This document shows, piece by piece, positions 354 through 12,397 of a DNA stretch of 64,000 bases. A program made the translations under genes and the position numbers. Source of the DNA: Bacteroidales bacterium UBA6192 (GTDB lineage Bacteria > Bacteroidota > Bacteroidia > Bacteroidales > F082); NCBI GenBank assembly GCA_002422725.1, contig DITE01000007.1, forward strand, positions 10,957 through 74,956, in the 5' to 3' direction. Each line of letters opens with the position of its first letter. The stretch's first letter is position 1. The notes under the pieces are model-generated. The model was given only the letters and a program-made list of their open reading frames with translations, was not told the DNA's origin and did no database searches.

Positions 354-3260
354 TTACTTTTGCTTTTCGTTGGTAAAAACAATGGCTTTTTTCAGAAAAT
401 CCTCCGTAAACAATAGATTGTGTTTTTTTGACAGTTCCGGGTTATAGATCAGTTTTTCTGACTGGGTATTACTAAATGGTATATTAGCCGGGTTTTCGCC
501 CCGAAGCACACGCACAGCTTTTTCGGCCGCTTCGAGTCCGGCATCATAGTAATCCCTCGCCAAACAAACTACTCCTCCTTCGCGCATCTGATCGCTGTCG
601 AAAACATAAACAGGCAGGTTGCTTTCAGCAGCTTTTCGTGCAATAAGTGCAAATCCAGGCCGGGTCATGTTGTCTACTATCTGACAAACCAACTGGATAT
701 CCTGACGGCAAAGCTCAGAAGTTGCCTGGGTGAGATCGGCACTGGAAGTTACCGGAATACTTACCAATCCTATTCCAAGCTTTTCAAGCTCCTGCTTAAA
801 CCAGTCTCTATACAGGACACTGTTGATTTCGGCCGGTGTAAACAATGTACCAACCTTTTTAACCTGGGGAATTGTTTCTTTAATCAGCTTTGCCATTCCA
901 TCAAAAGGCGATCGTGTGGTAATCCCGGTTACATTGGGCAAATGATCTGTTTCGCTCTTGCCGGCTCCTGCCTTAACAGCATCGCCAACACCTGTGAACA
1001 CTATTTTGGTATCCTCACCAGCTTGTCGAAGAGCCGCCTGTAAACTTGGAGTTGAAATAACCATCAGTAAATCAACCCTGTCCGATTTTACTGTTGTCAT
1101 AATGCTCGACAAGGTTGTCATATCGCCCTGGGCATTGAAAACCCTCAAATCATAATCTGTTCCCTCAGTAAGTCCGGCTTTTTTAATTCCATCTATTAAG
1201 CCTTCGTGGCACCGCTCGGCAAACTCAGTATCGCTATAATGAACTATCCTGAGTTTATGTCGTTTCTTCACCGGGCTGAAAGCATTTGATTTCGGCTCAA
1301 TGCGTTGCTGAACTTCAGTTTCCGTAATAGGTAATTGCGAAGGATGTACACCGGCAATAATTTTTGCAGCCAACTTTCCCGATTGTTTGCCCCATTCAAA
1401 AAAACTATCGCCATAAGCACCTGTAGCTCCCTGAGCAACAAGTTGAGGTTCGGTTGCAAAAATCGGAATGTTGGCTGAACTGGCAACCCTTAGGATTGAT
1501 TTGAAGCCTGTTGTAACCAGATTGTCGGCCGACACAATGATGGCTTTTGCACCTCTCTGAATAATGGCCTGAGTTGCCATCGTCAGTTCGGTGACATTGG
1601 TTGCTGTAGCCTCGATTACCTTAATGTTTTTGTATTTTCCGGCGATACGTAGTTTTTCGACAGAAAGAACAGAATTCATCTGAGCAGCATCGTAAACAAT
1701 ACCTACCGCTTTAAGGTCCGGAATATAATCCATTGCCATCTGAAGCAAATCAGCCACTGGTGGATTATCGTGAACACCGCAAACGTTTGACGGGCGGCCA
1801 TGGTTAAACATTTTCAGTTTCACCGGATCGCTGGTTACGGTAAGCACGACAGGTATATCGGTAACCCTGTTTACGACTGCCATCATCACAGGTGTAGTCA
1901 CCGTTACGATTACATCGGGTTTTTCGCGCACAACAGCATCAATAATAGACGATAACTGTCCGATTTCGCCCTGAGCACTGAATTTTTTCATTATATAGTC
2001 CGTGCCTGGCTGCAGGCCACTCCATTGCAGTCCGCTTTCGACTCCCTCAGCGGCTTCTTCAAGTGAGCTGTTCTCGACAAGTGTGATCAGGGACACTTTT
2101 GCAACACCTCCTTTGTAAAGCGCAACATGATGAAATAAATCTGCTTCCCGGATCATTGCTTCTGTTGGCTCAATTCCTTGTTGTTTAAGTTCAGCAAAGT
2201 CAATCGCAACACGATCAACCTCAGTCACTGATTGTTGATCAGCCAACCGGGCCTCAGTAAGCGGGCTCATTTTCCAGCTATTTCCGAGTGACGCCAACAA
2301 TGGCCTGTTCAGGTTCAGTTCTTCGGGGACAACATTTTCGATACGGAATTCGGATGGGCTTTTCCCTTCGAGGATAGCAATAGCGAGATCGGCTGTGTAT
2401 TGTCCAACGGTGAAATAGTTTGCTCCAAGGCCAAAAAGAGCTTCCCTTTCAACATCAGCAGGATCGTTAGTAAAAACCGGTACACCTTTGCTTTTTGCCA
2501 TATTGACGATCATTCCGGATGATGCCGTAGCCACGGTGTCGCCTCCGATCCATATGGCTTCGACCCCTTTGGAAAGCAAGGACCGTGTAGCCTCCGACAC
2601 TTCAGAAGTGTTGGTTGCGATTGCCTCGACCAGCTCTATTCCAAGTTCTTTGCAAATGATGCGGGCTTCGCCCAGGCAAGCTTCGGAGCATTGTTCGCCG
2701 GGATTCCACACAACGCCCACCCTTTTGATTGACGGGTTGAGTTCACGTAGTATTCTGAATGCATTCTGAACGGGCTGAAAAGTACCGATACCAGCCATAT
2801 ACGAAGGGTGCTGGTTCTTATCGGGGCCACTGATGCCTGCCCCGGTTCCGTAAGGATCGGTAACTGCCCCAAAAACATGTAGTTTTCCTGCACTTTGATT
2901 GGCTTTGGAAAAAACCTGCAATGCCACAGTACTCGACGTAATGGCCATTTTATACGGTCCGTTGACAATTTCACGGGCAATGGTGTTTGCCGTACTGAAA
3001 TCGCCTTGTGGATTAAATTGCCGAATGTTGGATCGGTCGGGTGCCACATAATTTTTTGACTGTAAACGGTCTATCACCCCGGCAACATGTGCATCCAGAA
3101 GGGGTGTAGACGAAATCTGCATAATGGCTATTGAAGGATAATCACGCTTTGTTTCTGTTTGCTTGCTTTGTCGCTGTTTCAAATCAGAAAGCAACAATAT
3201 CGCTGAAGTACCGAGTATAAGAACAATTGCCAGCCACAGGTCTTTGATGATGCTCTTCAT
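354..3260 (-). CDS. Membrane-anchored protein with three tandem ABC-transporter substrate-binding-like domains (ABC_sub_bind type)
   Basis: 968-aa ORF. It has one N-terminal hydrophobic helix (LWLAIVLILGTSAILLL) followed by three similar ~290-aa modules, starting near residues 40, 380 and 665. Each module has the same layout: beta-strand run, 'NAQGD/SAQGE/NPQGD', then '...KRVGVVWNP / KAVGIVYD / KKVGTLFTP'. There is no permease or ATPase gene nearby. Confidence 0.6.
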   Translation of the reverse strand: MKSIIKDLWLAIVLILGTSAILLLSDLKQRQSKQTETKRDYPSIAIMQISSTPLLDAHVAGVIDRLQSKNYVAPDRSNIRQFNPQGDFSTANTIAREIVNGPYKMAITSSTVALQVFSKANQSAGKLHVFGAVTDPYGTGAGISGPDKNQHPSYMAGIGTFQPVQNAFRILRELNPSIKRVGVVWNPGEQCSEACLGEARIICKELGIELVEAIATNTSEVSEATRSLLSKGVEAIWIGGDTVATASSGMIVNMAKSKGVPVFTNDPADVEREALFGLGANYFTVGQYTADLAIAILEGKSPSEFRIENVVPEELNLNRPLLASLGNSWKMSPLTEARLADQQSVTEVDRVAIDFAELKQQGIEPTEAMIREADLFHHVALYKGGVAKVSLITLVENSSLEEAAEGVESGLQWSGLQPGTDYIMKKFSAQGEIGQLSSIIDAVVREKPDVIVTVTTPVMMAVVNRVTDIPVVLTVTSDPVKLKMFNHGRPSNVCGVHDNPPVADLLQMAMDYIPDLKAVGIVYDAAQMNSVLSVEKLRIAGKYKNIKVIEATATNVTELTMATQAIIQRGAKAIIVSADNLVTTGFKSILRVASSANIPIFATEPQLVAQGATGAYGDSFFEWGKQSGKLAAKIIAGVHPSQLPITETEVQQRIEPKSNAFSPVKKRHKLRIVHYSDTEFAERCHEGLIDGIKKAGLTEGTDYDLRVFNAQGDMTTLSSIMTTVKSDRVDLLMVISTPSLQAALRQAGEDTKIVFTGVGDAVKAGAGKSETDHLPNVTGITTRSPFDGMAKLIKETIPQVKKVGTLFTPAEINSVLYRDWFKQELEKLGIGLVSIPVTSSADLTQATSELCRQDIQLVCQIVDNMTRPGFALIARKAAESNLPVYVFDSDQMREGGVVCLARDYYDAGLEAAEKAVRVLRGENPANIPFSNTQSEKLIYNPELSKKHNLLFTEDFLKKAIVFTNEKQK

Positions 3261-3326: not shown

Positions 3327-3755
3327 CTATCCCTCCAAAGATTTAGTTAATTCCAACACATTCAAATTGTTGATTCGATGATAGTTCACACCATCCATCA
3401 TTTTTCTCATGAAAAAAATGCCTAGTCCTCCAATTGACCTGTCCTCAGCAGTCAGGGTAACATCGGGATCATCCTGCAAGGTTGGATCAAACTCTTTCCC
3501 ATCATCGATGATCTTAATGATCAGATGACCTCCTGCTTTTTCGAGGGTGATTTCAATCTGATGAACAAGTGAATCGTCGTAAGCGTAATTCACCACATTC
3601 GTAAAAGCCTCTTCAATCACGAGGTTCAGCGTCATGGTGACTGCAAGGGGTATTTCCAGCTCATCGCCCATTTCCTCAAGAAAAAGGCTTATTTTTTCCA
3701 ATTCCTCCAGTTTGTTTTGTAGCCTGAGTGATTTGATATTTTTGTTTTTATCCAT
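3327..3755 (-). CDS. RsbW/SpoIIAB-like anti-sigma regulatory factor (Ser/Thr kinase, HATPase_c_2 type)
   Basis: 142 aa. N-box-like 'EEAFTNVVNYAY', 'IIDDGKEFDP' and 'GGLGIFFMRKMMDGVNY' match the small GHKL anti-sigma kinase layout. Confidence 0.7.
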   Translation of the reverse strand: MDKNKNIKSLRLQNKLEELEKISLFLEEMGDELEIPLAVTMTLNLVIEEAFTNVVNYAYDDSLVHQIEITLEKAGGHLIIKIIDDGKEFDPTLQDDPDVTLTAEDRSIGGLGIFFMRKMMDGVNYHRINNLNVLELTKSLEG

Positions 3756-3844: not shown

Positions 3845-6793
3845 TTAATTTCCTAACAACTTCACCGAAAACATCCATTGTTCCAGAGGGAGAACACTCT
3901 CTTCAAATTTACGCGCATAGCCTGCTGACCAGGTAGTTTTCAGGTATGAAAACAATACCAGTTCCAGGTCGACCTGCATACCGGCATTGAAAACATTTCG
4001 CCGGCTGATCTCATCATCCGGATTAAGCAAGGCATGGGTTCCAAACAAGGATGTTTTTATGTAAGTTGGATACAGCCAGGTAGTCCCGACATTGCGCAAG
4101 CGAATGGGTTTTAAGTTGAGTTCGCCCATGGTTTTGACAAAATTATAGGCTGACAGCGCATCGATGCCAACCCCCGGAAAAGCAAGGATCTTACGGTATT
4201 GATCCGCATGTTGCCAGTCGATATAGTTGTTTCTGAATCCCCCAAAATAGAATGAGGAAAATGAAGACCCTTTTTTGCCAAAGGATTGTCCTACACTGTT
4301 TCTTATCCAAAAACTCGTATTCCTGACAACAGGAACCAAAAATCCAATATGCTGCTCCGAAACCAACGAAGGATAAAGATTTCCATTAGCCAGATAGCTA
4401 TACGCAATCAGGTTCCACAAATATCCTTTTTCATCATCAACACCCCCCAGCGTACGCCTTAATTTTGTGACACCTATATCGGCCGACAAACTCTGAAAAT
4501 TCCTTATCGCTGTGGAAACATTTTGAAACTGAGGCAACACTTCCAGATCACCATAATGGGTTAAACTGAAACCGTAGTTTGTCTTTAACGGAGATTTGAG
4601 TGTAGATGATTTCTTGTAGCCTATGCCTACCGAATAGCCGGCTCTGCTTCGTTTGGTTGGCCCAAAAAGGTCGTAAAAATCGGTCTTGTTATAATTTGCC
4701 TGAAGATTCCATAACCAATAGTCCCATTGCAATTGTCCGTGAAATTTCTGCTTATCGGGAGAGGTACTCCAAGGTGAAGTCCCCAGGAATAAACTCAGAT
4801 TCGATATACCAACCCTGTCGCGCCAATTGAGCCGATAGCCGATCGCAATCGTTTCCTTGTATCCGGTAATATCGGGATAGGCTCCGGTGAGTGACATGTT
4901 TTTAATGGGCACATAGGCGGTTTCTTCGGTTTTTAGTGAATCAATATTCACTTTTGAGGCCGGAGGAAGCGAATAGTCGCCAATATGCGGACTTTTATCA
5001 TAAGCCAGGTTACCCAGGTAATTTATGGAATTGGCTTCGGTGATAACCTTCATGGGAATCACCCCGGGCCACATGCCATTTCGATAAAATTTGAGCACAA
5101 ACAAGGAGTCTTCACCAATTTGCTGTGGCATAAAAAGTCCGCTTTCGTCGTTAGAGAGCAATTCAAACGACTTATCTTCAAAGGAAAAACGCCAGATATT
5201 GGAAACCCCGGTATAGTATGAAATCCCCATCAGGAATCGGTCGTCTTGCGAAAAACGGAATTGTGTCAAGGTGTTGTCTTCTAACTTTATAAGCGTTTCA
5301 AATTCCTTGACGCCTATTTCCAGATCGGCCAGTTTAAAAAGAATAAGCGATTGTTCGCCACGTATACCTGTGAGGGAGGCTGTTAACTTAGTACCATCAT
5401 TGGAAATGGAAAGGTCGAGCATCGATCTGCCAAAATCGGTGGTATACATTGGAATGATTTCGGTGTAAGGTTCCGGAATCTTGACCAGCGTAGCATATCC
5501 ATTGTCATGTTTCACTCCCCAAATACTCCGGTCAACCGGGTTGAAGGTAAGATTGCCGGTGCGCGAAAGCGGAATGAGGGTTTCTTTCTTCCCGGATGAA
5601 ACATCAATTTTCACCAAACTCCGATATTTTCCATTCTGTTCGGTGATGAAAATTTGTTGATTGTGAGGATCATATGCAAGGTAAGTAACCGAATACAGCA
5701 TAGGGGAATCAAGTACGGCTATTTTTTTGAGTTTGCCCGTGCGGAGGTTCAGTTCAGCAATATGTGAAATCTGCCCCGGATGATTGATCGCGGCATACAT
5801 TTTCATCTCCTTTTTATCGAATCCGACGGTTGAAAAACTGCCAAGAGGTTCTGTAGTGAGTGGCCGGAACGATGTCAAAGGAAAATCCTTTACCTTATTG
5901 AGGTTTTGTTGTTGAAAATCTGTTTCAAAATTGATCCATTCGTCCCATGCATGCTGCACATTCTTGCCGAATACTTTCCGAAACTGGGCGGCATAAAAGG
6001 CTTTACTCCCATCGGTGCGATCATAAAGTTCCTTAATCTTCTCGTCTCCATAAGCCTGAGCCAGATAGGTTACAAAGCGTGTTCCATACAGGTAGGCATT
6101 TGCACCCACCTGAAAATCAACTGTCGATCCTTCTGTTTCCAACCCGACCACTGAATACAGCGGATAACCTTCGTTTATTATACTGCGGAAGTACATTTCG
6201 TCGTATGGACCCAATGCTCTTCCCAGTCCTCCCGACGTCCAGGTTTCGAGGTAGCAGGCAATGCCTTCGTGATACCAGCGCGGGGCATACCATCGCGGTG
6301 TGGTAAGATAGCTCCAGAAAGCGGTCGTAGGTACTTTTTCGTCCCGGGCAACTTTACCGAACAAGACTTTACGCCAAAACATATCTGATTTGTTGGGCTT
6401 GTCGGCCAGGGTAATATGGGTAAGCTCGTGGGCAAACAGCCATTGAAAACGTTCACTTGACGGAGTAATGCTAAAGGCAAAATTGAAGGGTGAAACGCCA
6501 AGAATAATCATGTTGTAAGGCATTACAATGGCTCCGCCATGACCATCGTCTTCAAAATCGGTGAGCATCACATACGTCATCTTGTGCGGATAATTCCAAT
6601 GTGCCTTATGGAAATCAAGGGCATTATGGAAGGTACGCGCCACATGAGGCATGAGATAGCTATATCGTTTCCCGAAATAGATCAGTTCCATCTCATCCGT
6701 TTTGAAACGGTTAATTTTTTGGCTAAAAAGAAAGCCTGATGTCCCTATATAAAGAAACACCAGGAATACAAAACGGGTGAAAATGTATGTCAT
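3845..6793 (-). CDS. Large envelope protein: N-terminal HExxH metallopeptidase-like domain, central beta-propeller-like region, C-terminal beta-rich (possible outer-membrane barrel) region
   Basis: 982 aa with an N-terminal signal/anchor. 'LFAHELTHITL' is a HExxH motif and 'WYHEGIACYLE' lies downstream. The middle region has TolB/WD40-like strand repeats. The C-terminal ~350 aa is rich in alternating aromatic/Gly strands and ends '...MFSVKLLGN'. Confidence 0.45.
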   Translation of the reverse strand: MTYIFTRFVFLVFLYIGTSGFLFSQKINRFKTDEMELIYFGKRYSYLMPHVARTFHNALDFHKAHWNYPHKMTYVMLTDFEDDGHGGAIVMPYNMIILGVSPFNFAFSITPSSERFQWLFAHELTHITLADKPNKSDMFWRKVLFGKVARDEKVPTTAFWSYLTTPRWYAPRWYHEGIACYLETWTSGGLGRALGPYDEMYFRSIINEGYPLYSVVGLETEGSTVDFQVGANAYLYGTRFVTYLAQAYGDEKIKELYDRTDGSKAFYAAQFRKVFGKNVQHAWDEWINFETDFQQQNLNKVKDFPLTSFRPLTTEPLGSFSTVGFDKKEMKMYAAINHPGQISHIAELNLRTGKLKKIAVLDSPMLYSVTYLAYDPHNQQIFITEQNGKYRSLVKIDVSSGKKETLIPLSRTGNLTFNPVDRSIWGVKHDNGYATLVKIPEPYTEIIPMYTTDFGRSMLDLSISNDGTKLTASLTGIRGEQSLILFKLADLEIGVKEFETLIKLEDNTLTQFRFSQDDRFLMGISYYTGVSNIWRFSFEDKSFELLSNDESGLFMPQQIGEDSLFVLKFYRNGMWPGVIPMKVITEANSINYLGNLAYDKSPHIGDYSLPPASKVNIDSLKTEETAYVPIKNMSLTGAYPDITGYKETIAIGYRLNWRDRVGISNLSLFLGTSPWSTSPDKQKFHGQLQWDYWLWNLQANYNKTDFYDLFGPTKRSRAGYSVGIGYKKSSTLKSPLKTNYGFSLTHYGDLEVLPQFQNVSTAIRNFQSLSADIGVTKLRRTLGGVDDEKGYLWNLIAYSYLANGNLYPSLVSEQHIGFLVPVVRNTSFWIRNSVGQSFGKKGSSFSSFYFGGFRNNYIDWQHADQYRKILAFPGVGIDALSAYNFVKTMGELNLKPIRLRNVGTTWLYPTYIKTSLFGTHALLNPDDEISRRNVFNAGMQVDLELVLFSYLKTTWSAGYARKFEESVLPLEQWMFSVKLLGN

Positions 6794-6900: not shown

Positions 6901-7920
6901 TCACCAACTTCGCAATTGCTCGCTATCGGTAAAGCCTGTTCTTAAATTCTCCATGTCACCAAAATAAAGACCTAGTCTGGCTTCATTCATAAAGTCATTT
7001 AACACTTCATGATCGCTAAGGTCTGGAATATTCAATATGGTTTCTGATCCACCCATGAACTCTGATAAAAGCCGACTATTGATTGCTTGCAGTCTTTCCA
7101 CATCCAAAAATATGACTGTATTTAGCCTTTCTGAATCAACAATTATTGGAAACTCAATTCCAAGTGTTACGGTCTCTAAGGAAAGCTGATCCCTGAAGGC
7201 TGATTTTAATTGCATTTCGGCAACCAATTCTTTCATTCCTTCTTGCTCGTTCTTGAGTTTCTTTTTGTCGAGATAACTCAATACGGGTTTGTTCTGGGAC
7301 AGAATTGCAGATTGCATGATGTTTAATGCCAGGATATCATGGGCATCTTCCAGTTCGGGATACTGAACGTCAGGGTTTGCCTCAGTGAAGGTAGCAATGG
7401 CATTCATATAACTCATGAGGATGTCATCGTGGTTGCGGATTCGGGCAATGGCATTCTGAGCCTGATTGAGATAGGTAATCACCGGAACATTTTCGTTACT
7501 GTCGAGTGAAACAACCAGGTTAAGGGCATACAACACGTCCTTTCGTGCTGTTTCGAGGTAAACCTTGAAACTGTTCAATGCATTGTAATATGGATGGTAA
7601 ATCTTATCAAACTCCTCCACTTTAATGGTTCTGCTAAGCACCATATCCACATCAGAGGCGTTTTTAATCGACAGGTAGTAATAATACAGCAGATACTTTT
7701 CATACTGAGCACGCTTCACGGTGTCTTCAACAAGTTCGTTTCGCAGCAATATGTCGTCCTCCGTGATTTTTACATTCCGGAAACGGTCAACTTTACCGAT
7801 TGATCCTGCCAGATCCTCATTGCTTGTTTTCGGAATATCAACAAATAGGGCAATAAGAACACCAATGATCAGGCTAAGTACTGCTAAGAGTACCGTCTGC
7901 AATACAGTGAATTTTTTCAT
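6901..7920 (-). CDS. Membrane-anchored protein of unknown function, paralog B
   Basis: 339 aa with an N-terminal TM helix. The first ~225 residues are near-identical to the 7977-8996 product. The C-terminal third diverges and carries SERL/VERLQ/MENLR/SEQLR motifs. Confidence 0.6.
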   Translation of the reverse strand: MKKFTVLQTVLLAVLSLIIGVLIALFVDIPKTSNEDLAGSIGKVDRFRNVKITEDDILLRNELVEDTVKRAQYEKYLLYYYYLSIKNASDVDMVLSRTIKVEEFDKIYHPYYNALNSFKVYLETARKDVLYALNLVVSLDSNENVPVITYLNQAQNAIARIRNHDDILMSYMNAIATFTEANPDVQYPELEDAHDILALNIMQSAILSQNKPVLSYLDKKKLKNEQEGMKELVAEMQLKSAFRDQLSLETVTLGIEFPIIVDSERLNTVIFLDVERLQAINSRLLSEFMGGSETILNIPDLSDHEVLNDFMNEARLGLYFGDMENLRTGFTDSEQLRSW

Positions 7921-7976
7921 TGTTTAAAGGGATAAGTTTAAAACTATATAAAGTTGTTCCTTAAAGTGAAGTGGAT

Positions 7977-8996
7977 CTACCTTAGATTCTCACTACTGTT
8001 AAAAAAAGAGCCAATTTGCTCCATGTCAGATACGAAAAAACCTAGTCCTTTGGTTTCGCTCATAAATGCCTGAAGTTGTTCCTGATTGCTAAGGTTCGAC
8101 ATGTTTTGCAAGGCTTCTGATCCCAAAAATGCAATTGAATTGAATTGCTCCATATTATTTAACACAAAACCCTGCAATTGCTCCATGTTGCGCACAATTA
8201 AACTTGCCCCCAGCAATTGTTCATTATTTACCAGGGCGAGTCTTTCAGCATCAAAGGCAAACTGATCCATCATCGCATCATTCAGATTATTTTCAGAAGC
8301 AAGCTGCTTGATTTCTTCCTTCCCGTTCATCAGTTTCTTCTTGTCCAGATAATTCAATACAGGTTTGTTCTGGGACAGAATGGCTGACTGCATGATGTTC
8401 AATGCCAGGATATCGTGGGCATCTTGCAGTGCAGGATATTGAACACCCGGGTTTGCCTCAATAAAGGTGGCAATGGCATCCATATAATTCATGAGGATGT
8501 CGTCGTGGTTGCGGATTCGGGCAATGGCATTCTGGGCCTGATTGAGATAGGCAATCACCGGAACATTTTCGTTGTCGTCAATTGAAAGAATCAGGTTAAG
8601 GGCAAATAAAATATCGGTACGGGCAGTCCCGAGATACACTTTGAAATTACTCAATGCATCATAATAGGGATGGTAAGATTTATCAAACTCCTCAACGGTA
8701 ATCGTTTTGCTCAGCACAAGTTCCACATCGGAAGTTGTTTTTAAGGACTGATAATAATAATACAGCAGATACTTCTCGTATTGAGCACGTTTGACGGTGT
8801 CATCCGCAAGTTCGTTGCGCAGCAGAATGTCGTCCTCGGTAATTTTAACATTCCGGAAACGGTCAACCTTACCAATTGTTCCGGCAAGATCTTCACCCGA
8901 AGGTGGCTCACTTTTGGTGGCAAAGCCAATGATAAATCCAACCACCAATGAGGCGAAGGCAATGATAATGATTTGGGTTAAGCTTACTTTTTTCAT
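7977..8996 (-). CDS. Membrane-anchored protein of unknown function, paralog A
   Basis: 339 aa and the same architecture as paralog B. The C-terminal third contains repeated NNEQL/NMEQL/NMEQF/NQEQL/DMEQI motifs. Confidence 0.6.
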   Translation of the reverse strand: MKKVSLTQIIIIAFASLVVGFIIGFATKSEPPSGEDLAGTIGKVDRFRNVKITEDDILLRNELADDTVKRAQYEKYLLYYYYQSLKTTSDVELVLSKTITVEEFDKSYHPYYDALSNFKVYLGTARTDILFALNLILSIDDNENVPVIAYLNQAQNAIARIRNHDDILMNYMDAIATFIEANPGVQYPALQDAHDILALNIMQSAILSQNKPVLNYLDKKKLMNGKEEIKQLASENNLNDAMMDQFAFDAERLALVNNEQLLGASLIVRNMEQLQGFVLNNMEQFNSIAFLGSEALQNMSNLSNQEQLQAFMSETKGLGFFVSDMEQIGSFFNSSENLR

Positions 8997-9070: not shown

Positions 9071-9829
9071 CTATTTTTCCAAAAAAAGTTGTTTCATTGT
9101 CAAAACTGATTGATTTTGTGATGCTTTTATATTTATAGCCTTTTGTTGATCCTGTTTCTTCTCGAGGACAATTTGAAAAGTGGTGATTCCCGATGCAGTA
9201 AAATAAACCGATCCGGGATCAAAACTACTTGAGCGCGCCCCATCGGCAGAAATATAGTCAGCGGTTTTCAGTAAAAAGTCTGATTCATCAAAAGTCACCT
9301 CCAGCAGCACCTCATTTTTAGCATCGATCATGAAATTCAGGTAGTTCAACTGGCCAATCTGATAAGGCACCATCGTGATCATTGCCTGGTTGTTAACATA
9401 TGATAAACCCTGCTTCGGGCTGGCAACCATGCTGCCCGAAAGCAATTCGGTGTTTGGTTTGGAGCTCTCCGCAAAAAAAATCCAGGAAAAGGTAAACCCT
9501 ATTAATATTCCAACAGTCATAATGAATGCAAAGCGCACAGGAGCCGGTCGGTAAAGGCCGCCGAAGGGGTTCTGTAAAGGAGATACTGTGCTGTTGCGCT
9601 GGCTTCCGTTAACAATTTTCTGCATTACTGAACCCGACACATCAATTGACTCTTGTGTCTGCAGCTGTGAATTCAGTTTGTTTTCGATGTCGAGCAAACG
9701 CAAAAATGCTTCGCGCTCTTTGTCGGAAGCATCGAGCATCTTGTTCAGTACTTCCTCCTCATCCGGAGTAATTAATCCGGCGATTTTTGCTCTCTTAAGC
9801 TTATTTAATTTTCTGTTTCTGAACCACAT
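9071..9829 (-). CDS. Putative single-pass anti-sigma factor (non-ZAS)
   Basis: 252 aa, 28 nt downstream of the ECF sigma gene. It has a short charged N-terminal region, one TM helix (FAFIMTVGILIGFTFSWIFF) and a ~125-aa extracytoplasmic domain. No HxxxCxxC motif is present. The call rests mainly on position and topology. Confidence 0.5.
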   Translation of the reverse strand: MWFRNRKLNKLKRAKIAGLITPDEEEVLNKMLDASDKEREAFLRLLDIENKLNSQLQTQESIDVSGSVMQKIVNGSQRNSTVSPLQNPFGGLYRPAPVRFAFIMTVGILIGFTFSWIFFAESSKPNTELLSGSMVASPKQGLSYVNNQAMITMVPYQIGQLNYLNFMIDAKNEVLLEVTFDESDFLLKTADYISADGARSSSFDPGSVYFTASGITTFQIVLEKKQDQQKAINIKASQNQSVLTMKQLFLEK

Positions 9830-9857: not shown

Positions 9858-10448
9858 TCAATAATAACCCGATTCCTCCAGTTTCTCCTTCAGTTGCAAA
9901 CGTGCGTCATACAGGCGCGATCTGACTTTTTTCTCCGGAATTTCCAGTGCAAATGCTATCTCTCTGTAAGATAGTTGTTGGTAATATTTCAAAACGACCA
10001 CAGCTTTATATTGATTTTTCAGTTGGTCCACGGCTTTCTTCATCAGGGCATCCGTTTCGGACTTTTGTTCATCTGTTTCAGCCGACATATTGATTAATTG
10101 TTCCATTCCAACATACTTTTTTTTCTTCTTCAGATGATTCAATGCCATATTGATTGCAATCCGGTACAACCAACTAAAAAACCTGTGGGAAAACCGGAAA
10201 GTTGGCAGCGCTTCGTAGGCCTTTACAAAAACAGCCTGAGTCATTTCTTTCGCCTCTTCCCTATCATGCAACATCCGCAGAAAAAGATTGTAAACCGGAA
10301 CCTGATACCTGTTAACCAATATTGCGTAATCATTGACAGATCCATGAATTACCATCCTGATGATGTCATAATCCTCTTCATCCATCGGTTGATTTCTGCT
10401 CTCTTTCTGCAGGGTGTTGTATATGTTATTTTCCTCCGTTTTCACCAA
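9858..10448 (-). CDS. ECF-type RNA polymerase sigma-70 family factor
   Basis: Region-2-like 'YQVPVYNLFLRMLHDREEAKEMTQAVFVKAYEAL' and region-4-like 'LSYREIAFALEIPEKKVRSRLYDARLQLKEKL'. The track start at 10448 is TTG. An in-frame ATG at 10385 would give a more typical 175 aa. Confidence 0.8.
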   Translation of the reverse strand: MVKTEENNIYNTLQKESRNQPMDEEDYDIIRMVIHGSVNDYAILVNRYQVPVYNLFLRMLHDREEAKEMTQAVFVKAYEALPTFRFSHRFFSWLYRIAINMALNHLKKKKKYVGMEQLINMSAETDEQKSETDALMKKAVDQLKNQYKAVVVLKYYQQLSYREIAFALEIPEKKVRSRLYDARLQLKEKLEESGYY

Positions 10449-10485: not shown

Positions 10486-11481
10486 TTAATTTTTTAATTG
10501 ATTTAGTTTCCAGATTTCCCGATGTTTCATTCTTACCAGCGGTTGCAATGCCAGTTCTCCAATTTTTCCAATTTGCCTGCGCAGTTGTTTCAATTCTTCG
10601 AGTTTGGCACCAATATCAGGTTCAACAATCAGCGGAAACCCATTCTCCTTTAGCATCATGTTGCGCTTGGCTTTGATGCTAAGTTCCAGATAAACACTGA
10701 TATAATTGTAGAGATCGACTATTGCCTCGGAGCTAAAGTGTTTTCGTAATGACATCAAGTAATCCCCGGCTTTCGTGTGGGCAAATTTACCCTGCTGCAT
10801 CATCCTTAGCAACTCCACTTCATGGCTGAACTCAATTTCGAGCCAATCCTGCAAACTGTTGTTGCTCTTTTGAAAAACAAGCATAAATACGAGTGGTAAC
10901 ACAATAAAAATAAGCGCTGTTTGGATATATGGGTTCAAAAAGAAATGATTGAAACCACTATGCAGTATTATGGCTGTTAAAAAACCCGGGATAACTGCCA
11001 GAATTAAATGCTTATCACGCTGTATGCCATCAATAAGAATGATAGCAAATAAAGCCGTGCAGCCGCCATGCATCAAGGCAGTGCCGAAACCACGAAGTAT
11101 CCAGACTACTAACCCTGGCTGATGACCAAGAGCAAACATATAAAAAACGTTTTCGGCCAGCGCAAAACCTGCTCCTGCGGCAAAACCATAGACAGCTGCA
11201 TCCACTGCAAAGCCAATCTTTTTCCTGCTGATCAGAAAAAATACAATGAGTATTTTGCTCAGTTCTTCGGTAATCGGAGCAAGATAACGGCTGAATGTTG
11301 CAAAACCAATTGTCAGCTGACTGTTCAGCCATGTGTTGAGGTAATATGAAATCAATGCTGAAATCACTCCCCAGAATATGCATAATCCAAGCCTGCTTTT
11401 GCTCACCAGTTTAAAACTGTCGAGCAGAAACAAACCTGTTAAAAACAGTAAAACCGGCAAAATACTGAACACGATATGCAT
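10486..11481 (-). CDS. PrsW-family intramembrane metalloprotease with a C-terminal cytoplasmic extension
   Basis: Polytopic membrane protein with 'ITEELSKILIV' (EExxK), 'GFALAENVFY' and 'ALMHGGCTALFA'. I prefer the ATG at 11481 (MHIVFSILPVLL...) because the longer track ORF (to 11574) overlaps the upstream STAS gene. The last ~130 aa are soluble and of unknown function. Confidence 0.7.
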   Translation of the reverse strand: MHIVFSILPVLLFLTGLFLLDSFKLVSKSRLGLCIFWGVISALISYYLNTWLNSQLTIGFATFSRYLAPITEELSKILIVFFLISRKKIGFAVDAAVYGFAAGAGFALAENVFYMFALGHQPGLVVWILRGFGTALMHGGCTALFAIILIDGIQRDKHLILAVIPGFLTAIILHSGFNHFFLNPYIQTALIFIVLPLVFMLVFQKSNNSLQDWLEIEFSHEVELLRMMQQGKFAHTKAGDYLMSLRKHFSSEAIVDLYNYISVYLELSIKAKRNMMLKENGFPLIVEPDIGAKLEELKQLRRQIGKIGELALQPLVRMKHREIWKLNQLKN

Positions 11482-11509
11482 GATCAGGAAGGCTTTGTGA
11501 TCATGATTG

Positions 11510-11836
11510 TTACTGGGATGCTGACTGCAGGTCAGGATAAATGGCAAATATGCTTGAAAAACCCGAAATATCAAATATTTCGCGAATGGTGGGCTGCAAA
11601 TTGCACAGCCTTAGTTTGCCTGCTGTAGCGGTTAGTTTTTTCTGAGCCATTAAAAACACCCTAAGGCCCGAACTGCTGATGTAATCGAGCTGGCTGCAAT
11701 CGACCACCAAATGGGCATGTTTTTCGGTCAATGGTAAAAGACTGGCTTCAAATTCACCAGCCGTGATGGTGTCGATGCGCCCCTGAACCCCAATAATGGC
11801 CGTGTTGCCTGAAATTGTTACGTTTACTTTCATCAT
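11510..11836 (-). CDS. STAS-domain anti-sigma-factor antagonist (SpoIIAA/RsbV-like)
   Basis: 108 aa. 'VVDCSQLDYISSSGLRVFLMAQKKL' is a typical STAS phosphorylation-loop context. Confidence 0.75.
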   Translation of the reverse strand: MMKVNVTISGNTAIIGVQGRIDTITAGEFEASLLPLTEKHAHLVVDCSQLDYISSSGLRVFLMAQKKLTATAGKLRLCNLQPTIREIFDISGFSSIFAIYPDLQSASQ

Positions 11837-12397
11837 CTTTAATTTTTGTGTTGGATATAAAGGATAGATATTAATGAATGCAATGGATTTGAATCTGGGT
11901 TACTCATAAAAATATACCAACAAATTATTTGATAATCAATTATTTGATCAGAGATAGTTTGTATATTTACAATGAATAAATCTATCATTCACAGAAATTA
12001 CACAACTCCTCTAAGCTTTTAAACTGAAAATCTGTCGAAAGTTAAGGAAAAAAATCTGGTTTCCTACTAAATACACCAATTAGTTTGAAAGAAATATTTG
12101 GCAATTGGTATGTCAGTTGATTTGTTCTTACCTGCCCAAGACGTTTTACGGATTGGTTGAGTTACAATAAGGGGGGGCAAGCTGGAGTTTATGCCGGAGG
12201 ACGAGCGGGTGAACACCTGAATTTAAGCGATAGTTCCTATTCAATTTAGTCGTAATGAAATCTGCATTTCGCAATGAATATTTCATCGTCTTTCACTTTA
12301 TATCAGTCTGTGTTCAACATCAATTCTGTTTGTCTTGTGTGCAGCACTTTTGCAGCCTATCAAAATTAAACATTATTCTCACCTCCAACATATTGCT

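What the first reader, a model, noticed from the sequence alone, without database searches (positions are those of the whole stretch)
6901..8996. Tandem 339-aa paralogs just downstream of the anti-sigma gene: conserved N-terminal two-thirds, diverged repeat-bearing C-termini
Both proteins are exactly 339 aa with one N-terminal TM helix. Residues ~35-225 are almost identical (for example 'GKVDRFRNVKITEDDILLRNEL', 'NAIARIRNHDDILM', 'QSAILSQNKPVL'). The last ~110 residues have diverged into different sets of short (N/D/S)(M/x)E(Q/R/N)(L/F/I) repeats: five or six 'MEQL/NEQL'-type motifs in one copy and 'SERL/VERL/MENL/SEQL' in the other. This mosaic pattern suggests diversification of a C-terminal interaction surface on a conserved scaffold. 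I cannot name a known family.
Basis: seen in the sequence. Interest (0 to 1): 0.6.

Follow-up and report, generated by a model that had tools for sequence, protein, structure and literature searches.

The report
Repeat-tailed partners of an envelope protease module
Two neighbouring genes encode membrane-anchored periplasmic proteins of an unnamed Bacteroidota family. It always travels with an outer-membrane zinc-protease/propeller/barrel protein and a PrsW protease, and in other bacteria it is fused to an anti-sigma factor, so it is probably the sensing arm of an undescribed envelope stress-signalling pathway.

Summary
Two 339-aa minus-strand genes (7977-8996, 6901-7920) are tandem paralogs: 83% identical in the core, about 35% in the anchor and the tail. 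The tails are degenerate arrays of about 11 residues, h-x-[DNS]-x-E-x-L-[GNQ]-x-h-h.

No Pfam, NCBIfam, PDB sequence or fold match exists.

In a 301-genome order sample, the same 20 genomes carry this family and the neighbouring 982-aa protein (zinc peptidase, TolB-like propeller, Omp85-like barrel). All 20 also carry the PrsW orthologue. The ECF sigma/anti-sigma pair is present in only about half of the order-level loci.

Across other Bacteroidota classes, the gene upstream of the 982-aa protein has the same design: anchor, G-T-I-G-K..Y-R motif, then crisp 8-16-residue repeats. In three lineages this module is fused to an anti-sigma N-terminal domain.

My best reading is a detached periplasmic sensor half of an anti-sigma factor. 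It would link the outer-membrane protease to PrsW-dependent sigma activation.

The three modules (anchor, core, tail) have separate histories, and a natural A/B chimera exists.

The searchable literature does not describe this module. This scan has met it before on other genomes, and those notes agree with mine. I saw them only after finishing my own analysis.

The parts
7977..8996 (-). parX-A, 339 aa: first tandem copy, with a 'type 1' anchor
   Evidence: ORF. Family hit E 1e-148. Its anchor is 57% identical to the first copy of L001.
6901..7920 (-). parX-B, 339 aa: second tandem copy, with a 'type 2' anchor
   Evidence: ORF. Family hit E 2.5e-144. Its anchor is 57% identical to copy 2 of L001.
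8913..8981 (-). A: N-terminal membrane anchor (residues 6-28), with invariant G20 and near-invariant G24 (GxxxG)
   Evidence: AF2 helix 6-28. Invariant columns. Some distant members have a lipobox here instead.
8808..8888 (-). A: juxtamembrane motif L-A-G-T-I-G-K-V-D-R-F-R-N-V-K-I-T-E-D-D-I-L-L-R-N-E-L (residues 37-63), the most conserved stretch of the family
   Evidence: Highest information content among 135 members. Residues 29-53 have pLDDT about 41. The motif recurs in fused anti-sigma/repeat proteins.
8337..8837 (-). A: helical-bundle core (residues 54-220). No structural neighbour found, and it is specific to the Bacteroidales-type members.
   Evidence: AF2 pLDDT 83-95. Best Foldseek PDB hit E 0.08, TM below 0.25. 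The core is absent from relatives in other classes.
7980..8321 (-). A: C-terminal tail of about 9 degenerate units of about 11 residues, h-x-[DNS]-x-E-x-L-[GNQ]-x-h-h
   Evidence: Motifs at residues 249, 257, 270, 281, 292, 304, 324 and 334. Family-wide periodicity and unit consensus. Low-confidence short helices.
6904..7245 (-). B: C-terminal repeat tail, 36% identical to the tail of A
3845..6793 (-). OM982: signal peptide, HExxH zinc peptidase, TolB-like six-blade propeller and an Omp85-like barrel of about 16 strands. It is the obligate partner of the family.
   Evidence: AF2 pTM 0.78. TolB hits at E 1e-8. Invariant H122/E123/H126/E176/E183. The same 20 of 301 genomes as parX. Adjacent in every order-level locus with flanks.
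9071..9829 (-). Anti-sigma-like protein, 252 aa: cytoplasmic N-domain, TM helix with GxxxG, juxtamembrane L-S-G-S-M, then a periplasmic domain of about 120 aa
   Evidence: No Pfam hit. Homologues sit between the sigma gene and parX in other loci. Invariant G's. The N-domain is homologous to that of the fused proteins.
9858..10448 (-). ECF sigma factor
   Evidence: Sigma70_r2 1e-14, Sigma70_r4_2 4e-13. Best matches are SigW/RpoE-like models, all below their equivalog cut-offs.
10486..11481 (-). PrsW-family membrane protease. The likely start is M32 of the listed ORF, because homologues align from residue about 31.
   Evidence: PF13367 1e-21. The orthologue is present in all 20 parX-positive genomes. 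Alignment starts.
11510..11836 (-). STAS anti-anti-sigma-type protein, the first gene of the co-directional cluster
   Evidence: PF01740 1e-23. The only TAATTTTG -7-type box nearby is at 12361-12368, minus strand.
3327..3755 (-). RsbW-like serine kinase/anti-sigma (HATPase_c_2)
   Evidence: PF13581 1e-23. Conserved in the cluster.
354..3260 (-). Membrane-anchored protein with repeated ABC_sub_bind domains
   Evidence: ORF. PF04392 in orthologues.

Best explanation
A and B are tandem paralogs of an unnamed family that I call parX. Each is held in the inner membrane by an N-terminal anchor, and the rest of the protein lies in the periplasm. The order of parts is a strongly conserved juxtamembrane motif (A-G-T-I-G-K-x-x-[KR]-Y-R...T-E-x-D-I-x-L-R), a helical bundle found only in the Bacteroidales-type members, and a C-terminal array of short acidic/Leu repeats.

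Shown here: the family is an obligate genomic partner of a 982-aa outer-membrane protein (zinc peptidase, TolB-like propeller, Omp85-like barrel). It belongs to a conserved module of RsbW, STAS, ECF sigma, anti-sigma, one to four parX copies, OM982 and PrsW. In three other lineages the same anchor, motif and repeat module is the extracytoplasmic half of the anti-sigma factor itself.

Inferred: parX is the detached sensor half of the anti-sigma factor. Its repeat tail reaches across the periplasm to the propeller or peptidase of OM982. The state of that contact, or trimming of the tail, controls whether PrsW cuts at the G-[TS]-[IM] juxtamembrane site that parX shares with the anti-sigma factor. 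That cut starts the proteolytic release of the ECF sigma factor.

Extra copies with different tails arise by duplication and by recombination inside the conserved core.
For: The genes are real and under purifying selection in the core (dN/dS 0.14).

Topology: only 5 residues precede the anchor. Distant members replace the helix with a lipobox (FSC).

Partnership: the same 20 of 301 genomes carry parX and OM982, and all 20 carry the PrsW orthologue. parX is adjacent to OM982 in every order-level locus with flanks.

In other Bacteroidota classes the gene directly upstream of OM982 has an anchor, a G-T-I-G..K-Y-R motif and crisp repeats of 8, 9, 12 or 16 residues.

Fusions: L049, L050 and L052 encode an anti-sigma N-domain followed by TM, motif and repeats. 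Their N-termini match stand-alone anti-sigmas at E 1e-7 to 8e-17. An HMM of parX residues 1-70 hits them exactly at the TM plus motif. An ECF sigma gene lies upstream.

The motif is the family's most conserved stretch, yet AF2 models much of it (residues 29-53) as unstructured, as expected of a docking or cleavage site.

Stand-alone anti-sigmas keep an invariant GxxxG and a juxtamembrane x-G-[ST]-[IM].

OM982 has a TolB-like propeller (E 1e-8), a fold that in TolB binds disordered peptides, and an invariant HExxH...E site.

No terminator-like site falls in the gaps between the cluster's genes, which is consistent with one operon.

Precedents: the PrsW/RsiW pathway (my own knowledge) and the Dma anti-sigmas of Bacteroides, which cross the periplasm on a disordered region to an outer-membrane barrel (PMC10927553).
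Against: No direct evidence exists for any contact or cleavage.

About half of the order-level loci lack a nearby ECF sigma/anti-sigma pair, so signalling to that sigma factor cannot be the family's only role.

In one genome (G571) the two parX genes lie 333 kb from OM982.

The similarity between parX and the stand-alone anti-sigma is weak (hhalign probability 3.8%; HMM E 540 at Z = 1e6). It rests on a short motif noticed after the fact.

B. subtilis PrsW cuts RsiW far from the membrane (my own knowledge), unlike the site proposed here.

Whether the peptidase and propeller of OM982 face the periplasm is inferred only from the Omp85 analogy.

Lipoprotein-anchored members do not fit a model that depends on the TM helix.
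Confidence: 0.5

Rival explanations
1. parX is an effector of the module, not a sensor: a periplasmic holdase, chaperone or tether. Its arrays of short amphipathic helices would bind unfolded or hydrophobic clients, such as outer-membrane protein precursors, and hand them to the Omp85-like barrel or peptidase of OM982. The sigma factor would only control its expression.
For: parX and OM982 travel together even where no sigma/anti-sigma pair is nearby. Relatives in other classes pass the Pfam cut-off for the STI1/HOP DP client-binding motif (68 and 33.5 bits). OM982 has an Omp85-type barrel, and Heinz and Lithgow liken WD40-Omp85 proteins to a BamA-BamB fusion (PMC4104836).
Against: The STI1 scores are inflated by repetition, and the window proteins give no hit. 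Other repeat-driven hits in the same search are plainly spurious. A holdase does not explain fusion of the same module to an anti-sigma N-domain. It also does not explain the ultra-conserved juxtamembrane motif.
Confidence: 0.2
2. parX is a pro-protein substrate. PrsW would release it from its anchor at the conserved motif. OM982 would then export or cut the repeat array into units, such as a fibre, a matrix protein or peptides. Tail variation would reflect diversifying selection at the cell surface.
For: Two proteases and a 16-strand barrel are always encoded alongside. The tails are hypervariable in sequence and in copy number. Some relatives have a cleavable-looking signal peptide followed by perfect 16-mers. 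Several family members end in an aromatic residue.
Against: No secretion signal or known export motif was found. Omp85 barrels without POTRA domains are not known translocases. The fused anti-sigma forms argue for a regulatory role. Core dN/dS of 0.14 indicates a folded, retained domain.
Confidence: 0.12
3. The tails are drift-prone spacers with no specific function. Only the anchor, the motif and the core matter, and the paralogs are redundant copies kept by recent duplication.
For: The tails are modelled with low confidence (pLDDT 39-66). They are poorly alignable, and their dS is saturated.
Against: The repeat period and the acidic/Leu unit are kept across the family and across classes, even where the core is missing. 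Motif density is twice that of shuffles. Anchor types are conserved by gene position between genomes.
Confidence: 0.08

Closest known systems
Bacillus subtilis sigma-W / RsiW / PrsW / RasP regulated intramembrane proteolysis
   Same: A PrsW-family protease is encoded beside a SigW/RpoE-like ECF sigma factor and a single-pass anti-sigma factor. parX has the same N-in single-pass topology as the anti-sigma factor and shares its G-[ST]-[IM] juxtamembrane motif.
   Different: parX has no cytoplasmic sigma-binding domain. The module adds an outer-membrane peptidase/propeller/barrel protein, a partner-switch set and repeat tails. About half of the Bacteroidales loci lack the sigma pair. The cleavage site is proposed, not shown.
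[quoted passage not shown] 2024, PMC10927553)
   Same: Both occur in Bacteroidota. In both, an inner-membrane-anchored regulator crosses the periplasm on a long unstructured region to reach an outer-membrane beta-barrel, and it is proposed to sense outer-membrane perturbation and to be proteolysed.
   Different: Dma is one polypeptide with an anti-sigma domain and its own 8-strand barrel. Here the barrel has about 16 strands, carries a peptidase and a propeller, and is a separate protein. parX lacks both the anti-sigma domain and a barrel.
Cell-surface signalling (FecA-FecR-FecI type)
   Same: Both combine an outer-membrane barrel protein, an inner-membrane single-pass protein with a periplasmic reach, and an ECF sigma factor activated by proteolysis.
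   Different: There is no TonB-dependent transducer, no FecR domain and no signalling domain. The outer-membrane partner is a WD40-Omp85-type protease.
TolA / TonB periplasm-spanning proteins
   Same: Both have an N-terminal TM anchor and a repetitive periplasm-spanning segment that reaches an outer-membrane-associated partner. TolA's partner, TolB, has the propeller fold seen in OM982.
   Different: parX has no C-terminal globular domain, no TolQR/ExbBD genes nearby and no S-H-L-S type TM motif. This is an analogy only.
WD40-Omp85 subfamily (Heinz and Lithgow 2014, PMC4104836), for the partner protein OM982
   Same: A TolB-like propeller lies N-terminal to an Omp85 barrel, and the subfamily is expanded in Bacteroidetes/Chlorobi.
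   Different: The paper does not mention the peptidase domain ('peptidase' occurs 0 times). In the passages I read it does not describe the PrsW or repeat-protein neighbours either. I did not test sequence membership.

Membership tests
Class I anti-sigma factor (RsiW-like) | Cytoplasmic N-terminal anti-sigma domain that binds the sigma factor | tested here: not met
   Only 5 residues precede the anchor in A and B. The domain is present in the neighbouring 252-aa protein and in the fused relatives.
Class I anti-sigma factor (RsiW-like) | Single-pass N-in/C-out membrane topology, encoded next to an ECF sigma gene | tested here: met
   MKK plus helix 6-28. The sigma gene lies 2 genes upstream.
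PrsW substrate | Cleaved by PrsW on the extracytoplasmic side | not testable with these tools
   The evidence is indirect only: PrsW co-occurs in 20 of 20 genomes, and a conserved, unstructured juxtamembrane motif is shared with the anti-sigmas.
Dma dual membrane-spanning anti-sigma | Anti-sigma domain, TM, disordered linker and C-terminal 8-strand outer-membrane barrel in one chain | tested here: not met
   A and B have no anti-sigma domain and no beta-strands. The architecture is taken from PMC10927553.
STI1/HOP DP domain (PF17830) | Pfam hit above the gathering score | tested here: not met
   A and B give no hit at E <= 0.1. Two relatives in other classes pass (68 and 33.5 bits), but repetition inflates their scores.
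TolA/TonB | C-terminal globular domain and TolQR/ExbBD partners | tested here: not met
   The tail runs to the C-terminus with no globular domain. No such genes are present in the cluster.
Unnamed repeat-tailed envelope protein of the PrsW / WD40-Omp85 cassette (this scan's family) | N-terminal anchor followed by the G-T-I-G-K..Y-R juxtamembrane motif | tested here: met
Unnamed repeat-tailed envelope protein of the PrsW / WD40-Omp85 cassette (this scan's family) | C-terminal short-period acidic/Leu tandem repeats | tested here: met
Unnamed repeat-tailed envelope protein of the PrsW / WD40-Omp85 cassette (this scan's family) | Encoded beside the peptidase/propeller/barrel protein, with PrsW in the genome | tested here: met

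The most novel reading that the evidence does not exclude
parX tails are length-tunable, periplasm-spanning tethers. They physically couple the inner-membrane PrsW/anti-sigma machinery to an outer-membrane WD40-Omp85 zinc protease. The protease trims the repeat array as a read-out of outer-membrane state or envelope spacing, so the module would be an in-trans, multi-input equivalent of dual-membrane anti-sigma factors. Tandem copies with different tails would give one pathway several inputs.
Probability: 0.2. Interest if true: 0.8.

Novelty: new variant of a known kind. Interest (0 to 1): 0.58.

Why it matters
Envelope stress signalling in Bacteroidota is poorly understood. This module joins two proteases, a partner switch, an ECF sigma factor and a fast-evolving repeat protein, and it recurs across the phylum without any description I could find.

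The paralog pair gives a concrete handle on it. The pair offers a conserved candidate cleavage or docking motif, a repeat tail whose length and sequence vary naturally, and natural fusions that say which pathway it belongs to.

If the tail does bridge to the outer-membrane protease, that would be a new way of reporting outer-membrane state to the cytoplasm. It would also assign a function to the WD40-Omp85 subfamily.

Tried and rejected
- **Family and structure searches.** Pfam and NCBIfam scans of A and B gave nothing except a noise hit to SU10_adaptor (E 0.055). Pfam scans of five diverse relatives also gave nothing. A PDB profile search gave 0 hits at E <= 10. Foldseek of the A model against the PDB gave only generic helical bundles, best E 0.08.
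- **Comparison with the neighbouring anti-sigma.** hhalign of the family against it aligned only a TM/juxtamembrane segment at 3.8% probability. I keep this as a lead only.
- **Repeat-driven matches I discount.** The STI1/HOP DP hits in relatives are probably repeat-pattern similarity. The 9-mer SPDFSRLMA matches the 9-mers of the factor V B-domain (E 4.5e-29), which I read as convergence. The motif resembles the histone H3 N-terminal region (E 0.02), which I read as chance.
- **DNA-level checks.** A tandem-repeat search of the two genes found nothing relevant. The sigma-70 promoter and terminator scans were not above the shuffle expectation. No Bacteroidetes -7 box lies in the internal gaps.
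- **Enzyme reading rejected.** The candidate polar residues (the D-A-H-D and N-A-I-A-R motifs) are not kept in distant members.
Full report
**Observation.** The window carries two minus-strand ORFs of exactly 339 aa: A at 7977-8996 and B at 6901-7920. They lie 56 nt apart, and A starts 74 nt after the stop of a 252-aa anti-sigma-like gene. Identity is 83% over residues 36-222, 30% over the first 30 residues and 36% over the last 110 or so. The tail of A has eight xxE-x-[LFIM] motifs at residues 249, 257, 270, 281, 292, 304, 324 and 334. The tail of B has seven.

**The repeat pattern is more than chance.** Across 85 family tails, E-x-[LIMF] occurs 5.9 times per tail against 2.8 in shuffled tails. 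48% of successive spacings fall at 9-13 residues (mode 11) against 13% in shuffles. The unit consensus is h-x-[D/N/S]-x-E-x-L-[G/N/Q]-x-h-h. The tails are acidic and rich in L, N, S and Q. More distant members show the unit crisply, for example ...F-D-A-E-K-L-G-V-I... repeated about ten times. The most distant members have S/G/A/N/Q/V-rich tails. No repeat is detectable at the DNA level.

**No known family or fold matches.** Pfam-A and NCBIfam give nothing for A or B. Pfam also gives nothing for five diverse relatives. A family profile finds no PDB sequence at E <= 10. AlphaFold2 on a 36-sequence alignment (mean pLDDT 72.8) predicts the following:
- an N-terminal helix at residues 6-28;
- an unstructured stretch at residues 29-53;
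- a confident helical bundle at residues 54-220 (pLDDT 83-95);
- low-confidence short helices in the tail.

Foldseek against the PDB returns only generic helical proteins, best E 0.08 with TM below 0.25. The family is small. It has 88 clusters at 90% identity, all 'hypothetical' from Bacteroidales/Bacteroidota assemblies. It has 266 representatives at 50% identity among 1.84 billion proteins. The window's genome holds only these two copies.

**Context in the window.** Nine co-directional genes run as follows:
- STAS;
- a PrsW-family protease;
- an ECF sigma factor;
- an anti-sigma-like protein;
- A;
- B;
- a 982-aa protein I call OM982;
- an RsbW-like kinase;
- a membrane protein with repeated ABC_sub_bind domains.

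No terminator-like site falls in the gaps between these genes. The only Bacteroidetes-type -7 box nearby lies upstream of STAS. This is consistent with, but does not prove, one operon.

**The invariant partner is OM982, not the sigma pair.** In an evenly drawn sample of 301 genomes of the order, 20 carry the family. Exactly the same 20 carry OM982. All 20 also carry the PrsW orthologue, as do four further genomes. I used tblastn with the window's proteins on 19 loci, and read five annotated contexts. The family lies next to OM982 in every order-level locus with enough flank, and usually near PrsW. An ECF sigma gene is present in only 12 of 23 loci, and PrsW often abuts parX directly. Two genomes of one genus differ by presence or absence of the sigma/anti-sigma pair between PrsW and parX (L019 against L020). 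Copy number ranges from one to four. In one locus an IS91-type transposase and an integrase sit between two copies.

**What OM982 is.** AlphaFold2 (pTM 0.78) gives these parts:
- a signal peptide;
- an alpha/beta-plus-helical domain carrying HExxH (residues 27-302);
- a six-blade propeller (residues 310-580);
- a barrel of about 16 strands (residues 623-978).

H122, E123, H126, E176 and E183 are invariant in 35 homologues. The propeller's best structural neighbours are TolB structures at E 1e-8. Pfam gives weak Peptidase_MA_2 and Omp85_2 hits. The architecture fits the 'WD40-Omp85' subfamily of Heinz and Lithgow (PMC4104836), whose function is unknown. The family is large, with more than 3,000 clusters, all unnamed. 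It occurs in 30 of 350 sampled genomes of the phylum, including other classes.

**The wider family.** In those other classes I read the gene directly upstream of OM982. It almost always encodes an N-terminally anchored protein with a G-T-I-G-x-x-x-K-Y-R-type motif about 10-15 residues past the anchor. Crisp tandem repeats follow:
- 9-mers such as ARFAELAKD (about 38 copies), LANADLRAM, EAFREALAS, SPDFSRLMA and F-x-ELAKNAQ;
- 8-mers and 12-mers;
- in a signal-peptide variant, perfect 16-mers (SNSQLEELGGRFGWTR).

Most of these proteins lack the helical core. The universal design is therefore anchor, motif and repeats, and the core is a Bacteroidales-type insert. Among 135 diverse members the motif region (residues 39-62 of A) is the most conserved stretch, even though AlphaFold2 leaves much of it unstructured. 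Two distant members replace the TM helix with a lipoprotein signal (FSC). This fixes the topology as periplasmic and shows that the anchor is interchangeable.

**Fusions.** Three upstream genes (L049, 427 aa; L050, 536 aa; L052, 389 aa) begin with a cytoplasmic domain of about 100-125 aa. That domain is homologous to the stand-alone anti-sigma factors of sister loci (BLASTP E 1e-7 to 8e-17). The proteins continue through a TM helix into S-G-T-I-G...K-Y-[RN] and repeats. An HMM of parX residues 1-70 aligns to them exactly at the TM plus motif. At a deliberately large Z of 1e6 the E-values are 0.0085, 0.038 and 0.17. The unfused relatives L044 and L045 score 2e-9 and 8e-9. An ECF sigma gene lies upstream in 13 of 13 TM-type loci of these classes, usually preceded by RsbW and STAS, with PrsW found after OM982 in the loci whose downstream flank I read (L038, L040, L044). 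The stand-alone anti-sigmas keep an invariant GxxxG in the TM helix and an x-G-[ST]-[IM] motif 8-14 residues beyond it. Direct similarity between parX and the stand-alone anti-sigma is weak, and I treat it as a lead only.

**Interpretation.** Three things are shown: co-occurrence, adjacency, and fusion to an anti-sigma domain. Together they place parX in the sensory, extracytoplasmic part of an ECF/PrsW proteolytic signalling module whose outer-membrane component is OM982. The rest is inference. The tail would reach the OM982 propeller or peptidase. The conserved juxtamembrane motif would be the docking or cleavage site for PrsW. The detached parX would gate or share the fate of the anti-sigma factor. 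The closest precedents are:
- the sigma-W/RsiW/PrsW pathway (my own knowledge);
- cell-surface signalling;
- the Dma anti-sigma factors of Bacteroides, which cross the periplasm on a disordered region to their own outer-membrane barrel (PMC10927553).

Several facts count against a purely sigma-centred role. Many Bacteroidales loci lack the sigma pair. One genome has parX far from OM982. Some members are lipoprotein-anchored. Rival readings (holdase or tether effector, exported or processed pro-protein, functionless spacer) are scored separately in this report.

**Evolution of the pair.** The core is under purifying selection (dS 0.77, dN/dS 0.14). The anchor and the tail are far more diverged, with dS 1.9 or saturated. 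In a core-only tree, A and B group together with two close relatives (97 SH-aLRT), and three of the four copies of locus L001 form their own tight clade. In other lineages the paralogs are old and separate. The anchors tell a different story. A's anchor resembles that of L001 copy 1 (57%), and B's resembles that of copy 2 (57%). L001 copies 2-4 share one anchor (87-93% identity, dS 0.17-0.43) although the core of copy 4 is only 67% identical to theirs. Protein P0003, from another sample, is 91-98% identical to A up to about residue 160 and 97% then 82% identical to B after it. It is a natural recombinant. The conserved core is thus both a functional domain and a recombination substrate that reshuffles anchors and tails and changes copy number.

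**Novelty and earlier scan notes.** I found no paper describing the family or the module. After finishing my own analysis I queried the scan's notes. The same module and repeat-tailed family had been noted on several other genomes, with the same closest-known system. Those notes agree with my independent results. One of them supplied the WD40-Omp85 reference, which I then read. I did not test the claim in those notes that the module spans more than ten phyla.

Noticed in passing
window 3845-6793 (-): OM982 is a highly conserved (40-80% identity across the order), unnamed outer-membrane protein. It combines an HExxH peptidase with an invariant active site, a TolB-like propeller and an Omp85-like barrel of about 16 strands. 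It occurs in 30 of 350 sampled genomes of the phylum.
   Followed up: partly
L049, L050, L052 (other Bacteroidota classes): These loci encode anti-sigma factors whose whole extracytoplasmic part is the G-T-I-G..K-Y-R motif followed by tens of 8- or 9-residue tandem repeats. Each gene lies directly upstream of an OM982 homologue and downstream of RsbW, STAS and an ECF sigma gene.
   Followed up: yes
L041, L056-L059: This is a variant cassette. A small secreted protein (signal peptide, then V-E-x-A-[VI]-R-[YF]-R, then perfect 16-residue repeats SNSQLEELGGRFGWTR) sits upstream of a longer OM982 homologue (about 1220-1250 aa). Further upstream, in L041, L056 and L057, lies what reads like a sigma-54-type AAA+ activator (E-S-E-L-F-G-Y-E-x-G-A-F-T). 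No ECF sigma gene is present.
   Followed up: no
L035 6743-8619: An IS91-family transposase and a phage-integrase-type gene are inserted between two parX copies.
   Followed up: no
P0003 (JGI contig, 2 kb): This is a natural chimera. Residues 1-160 are 91-98% identical to A, and residues 161 to the end are 97% then 82% identical to B. It implies unequal crossing-over inside the conserved core.
   Followed up: yes
window 10486-11574 (-): The listed PrsW ORF starts at a TTG that overlaps the STAS gene by 65 nt. Homologues are about 332 aa and align from residue about 31, so the true start is probably the ATG at 11481, 28 nt after the STAS stop.
   Followed up: partly
L019 vs L020 (same genus): The sigma/anti-sigma pair is present between PrsW and parX in one genome and absent in the other, where the gap is only 344 nt. 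The pair is therefore gained or lost as a unit.
   Followed up: partly
L026, L029: These distant family members carry a lipoprotein signal (..F-S-C) in place of the TM helix and keep the G-T-[IV]-G-K..K-Y-R-K motif.
   Followed up: partly
L050 repeats; L048 motif: The 9-mer SPDFSRLMA array matches the 9-residue repeats of the human factor V B-domain (E 4.5e-29). The juxtamembrane motif resembles the histone H3 N-terminal region (E 0.02). I read both as convergence or chance.
   Followed up: no
L040 5849-6541: Part of the repeat-protein gene reads as X because bases are withheld or masked in the source. The visible part is a run of near-perfect ALANADVLA 9-mers.
   Followed up: no
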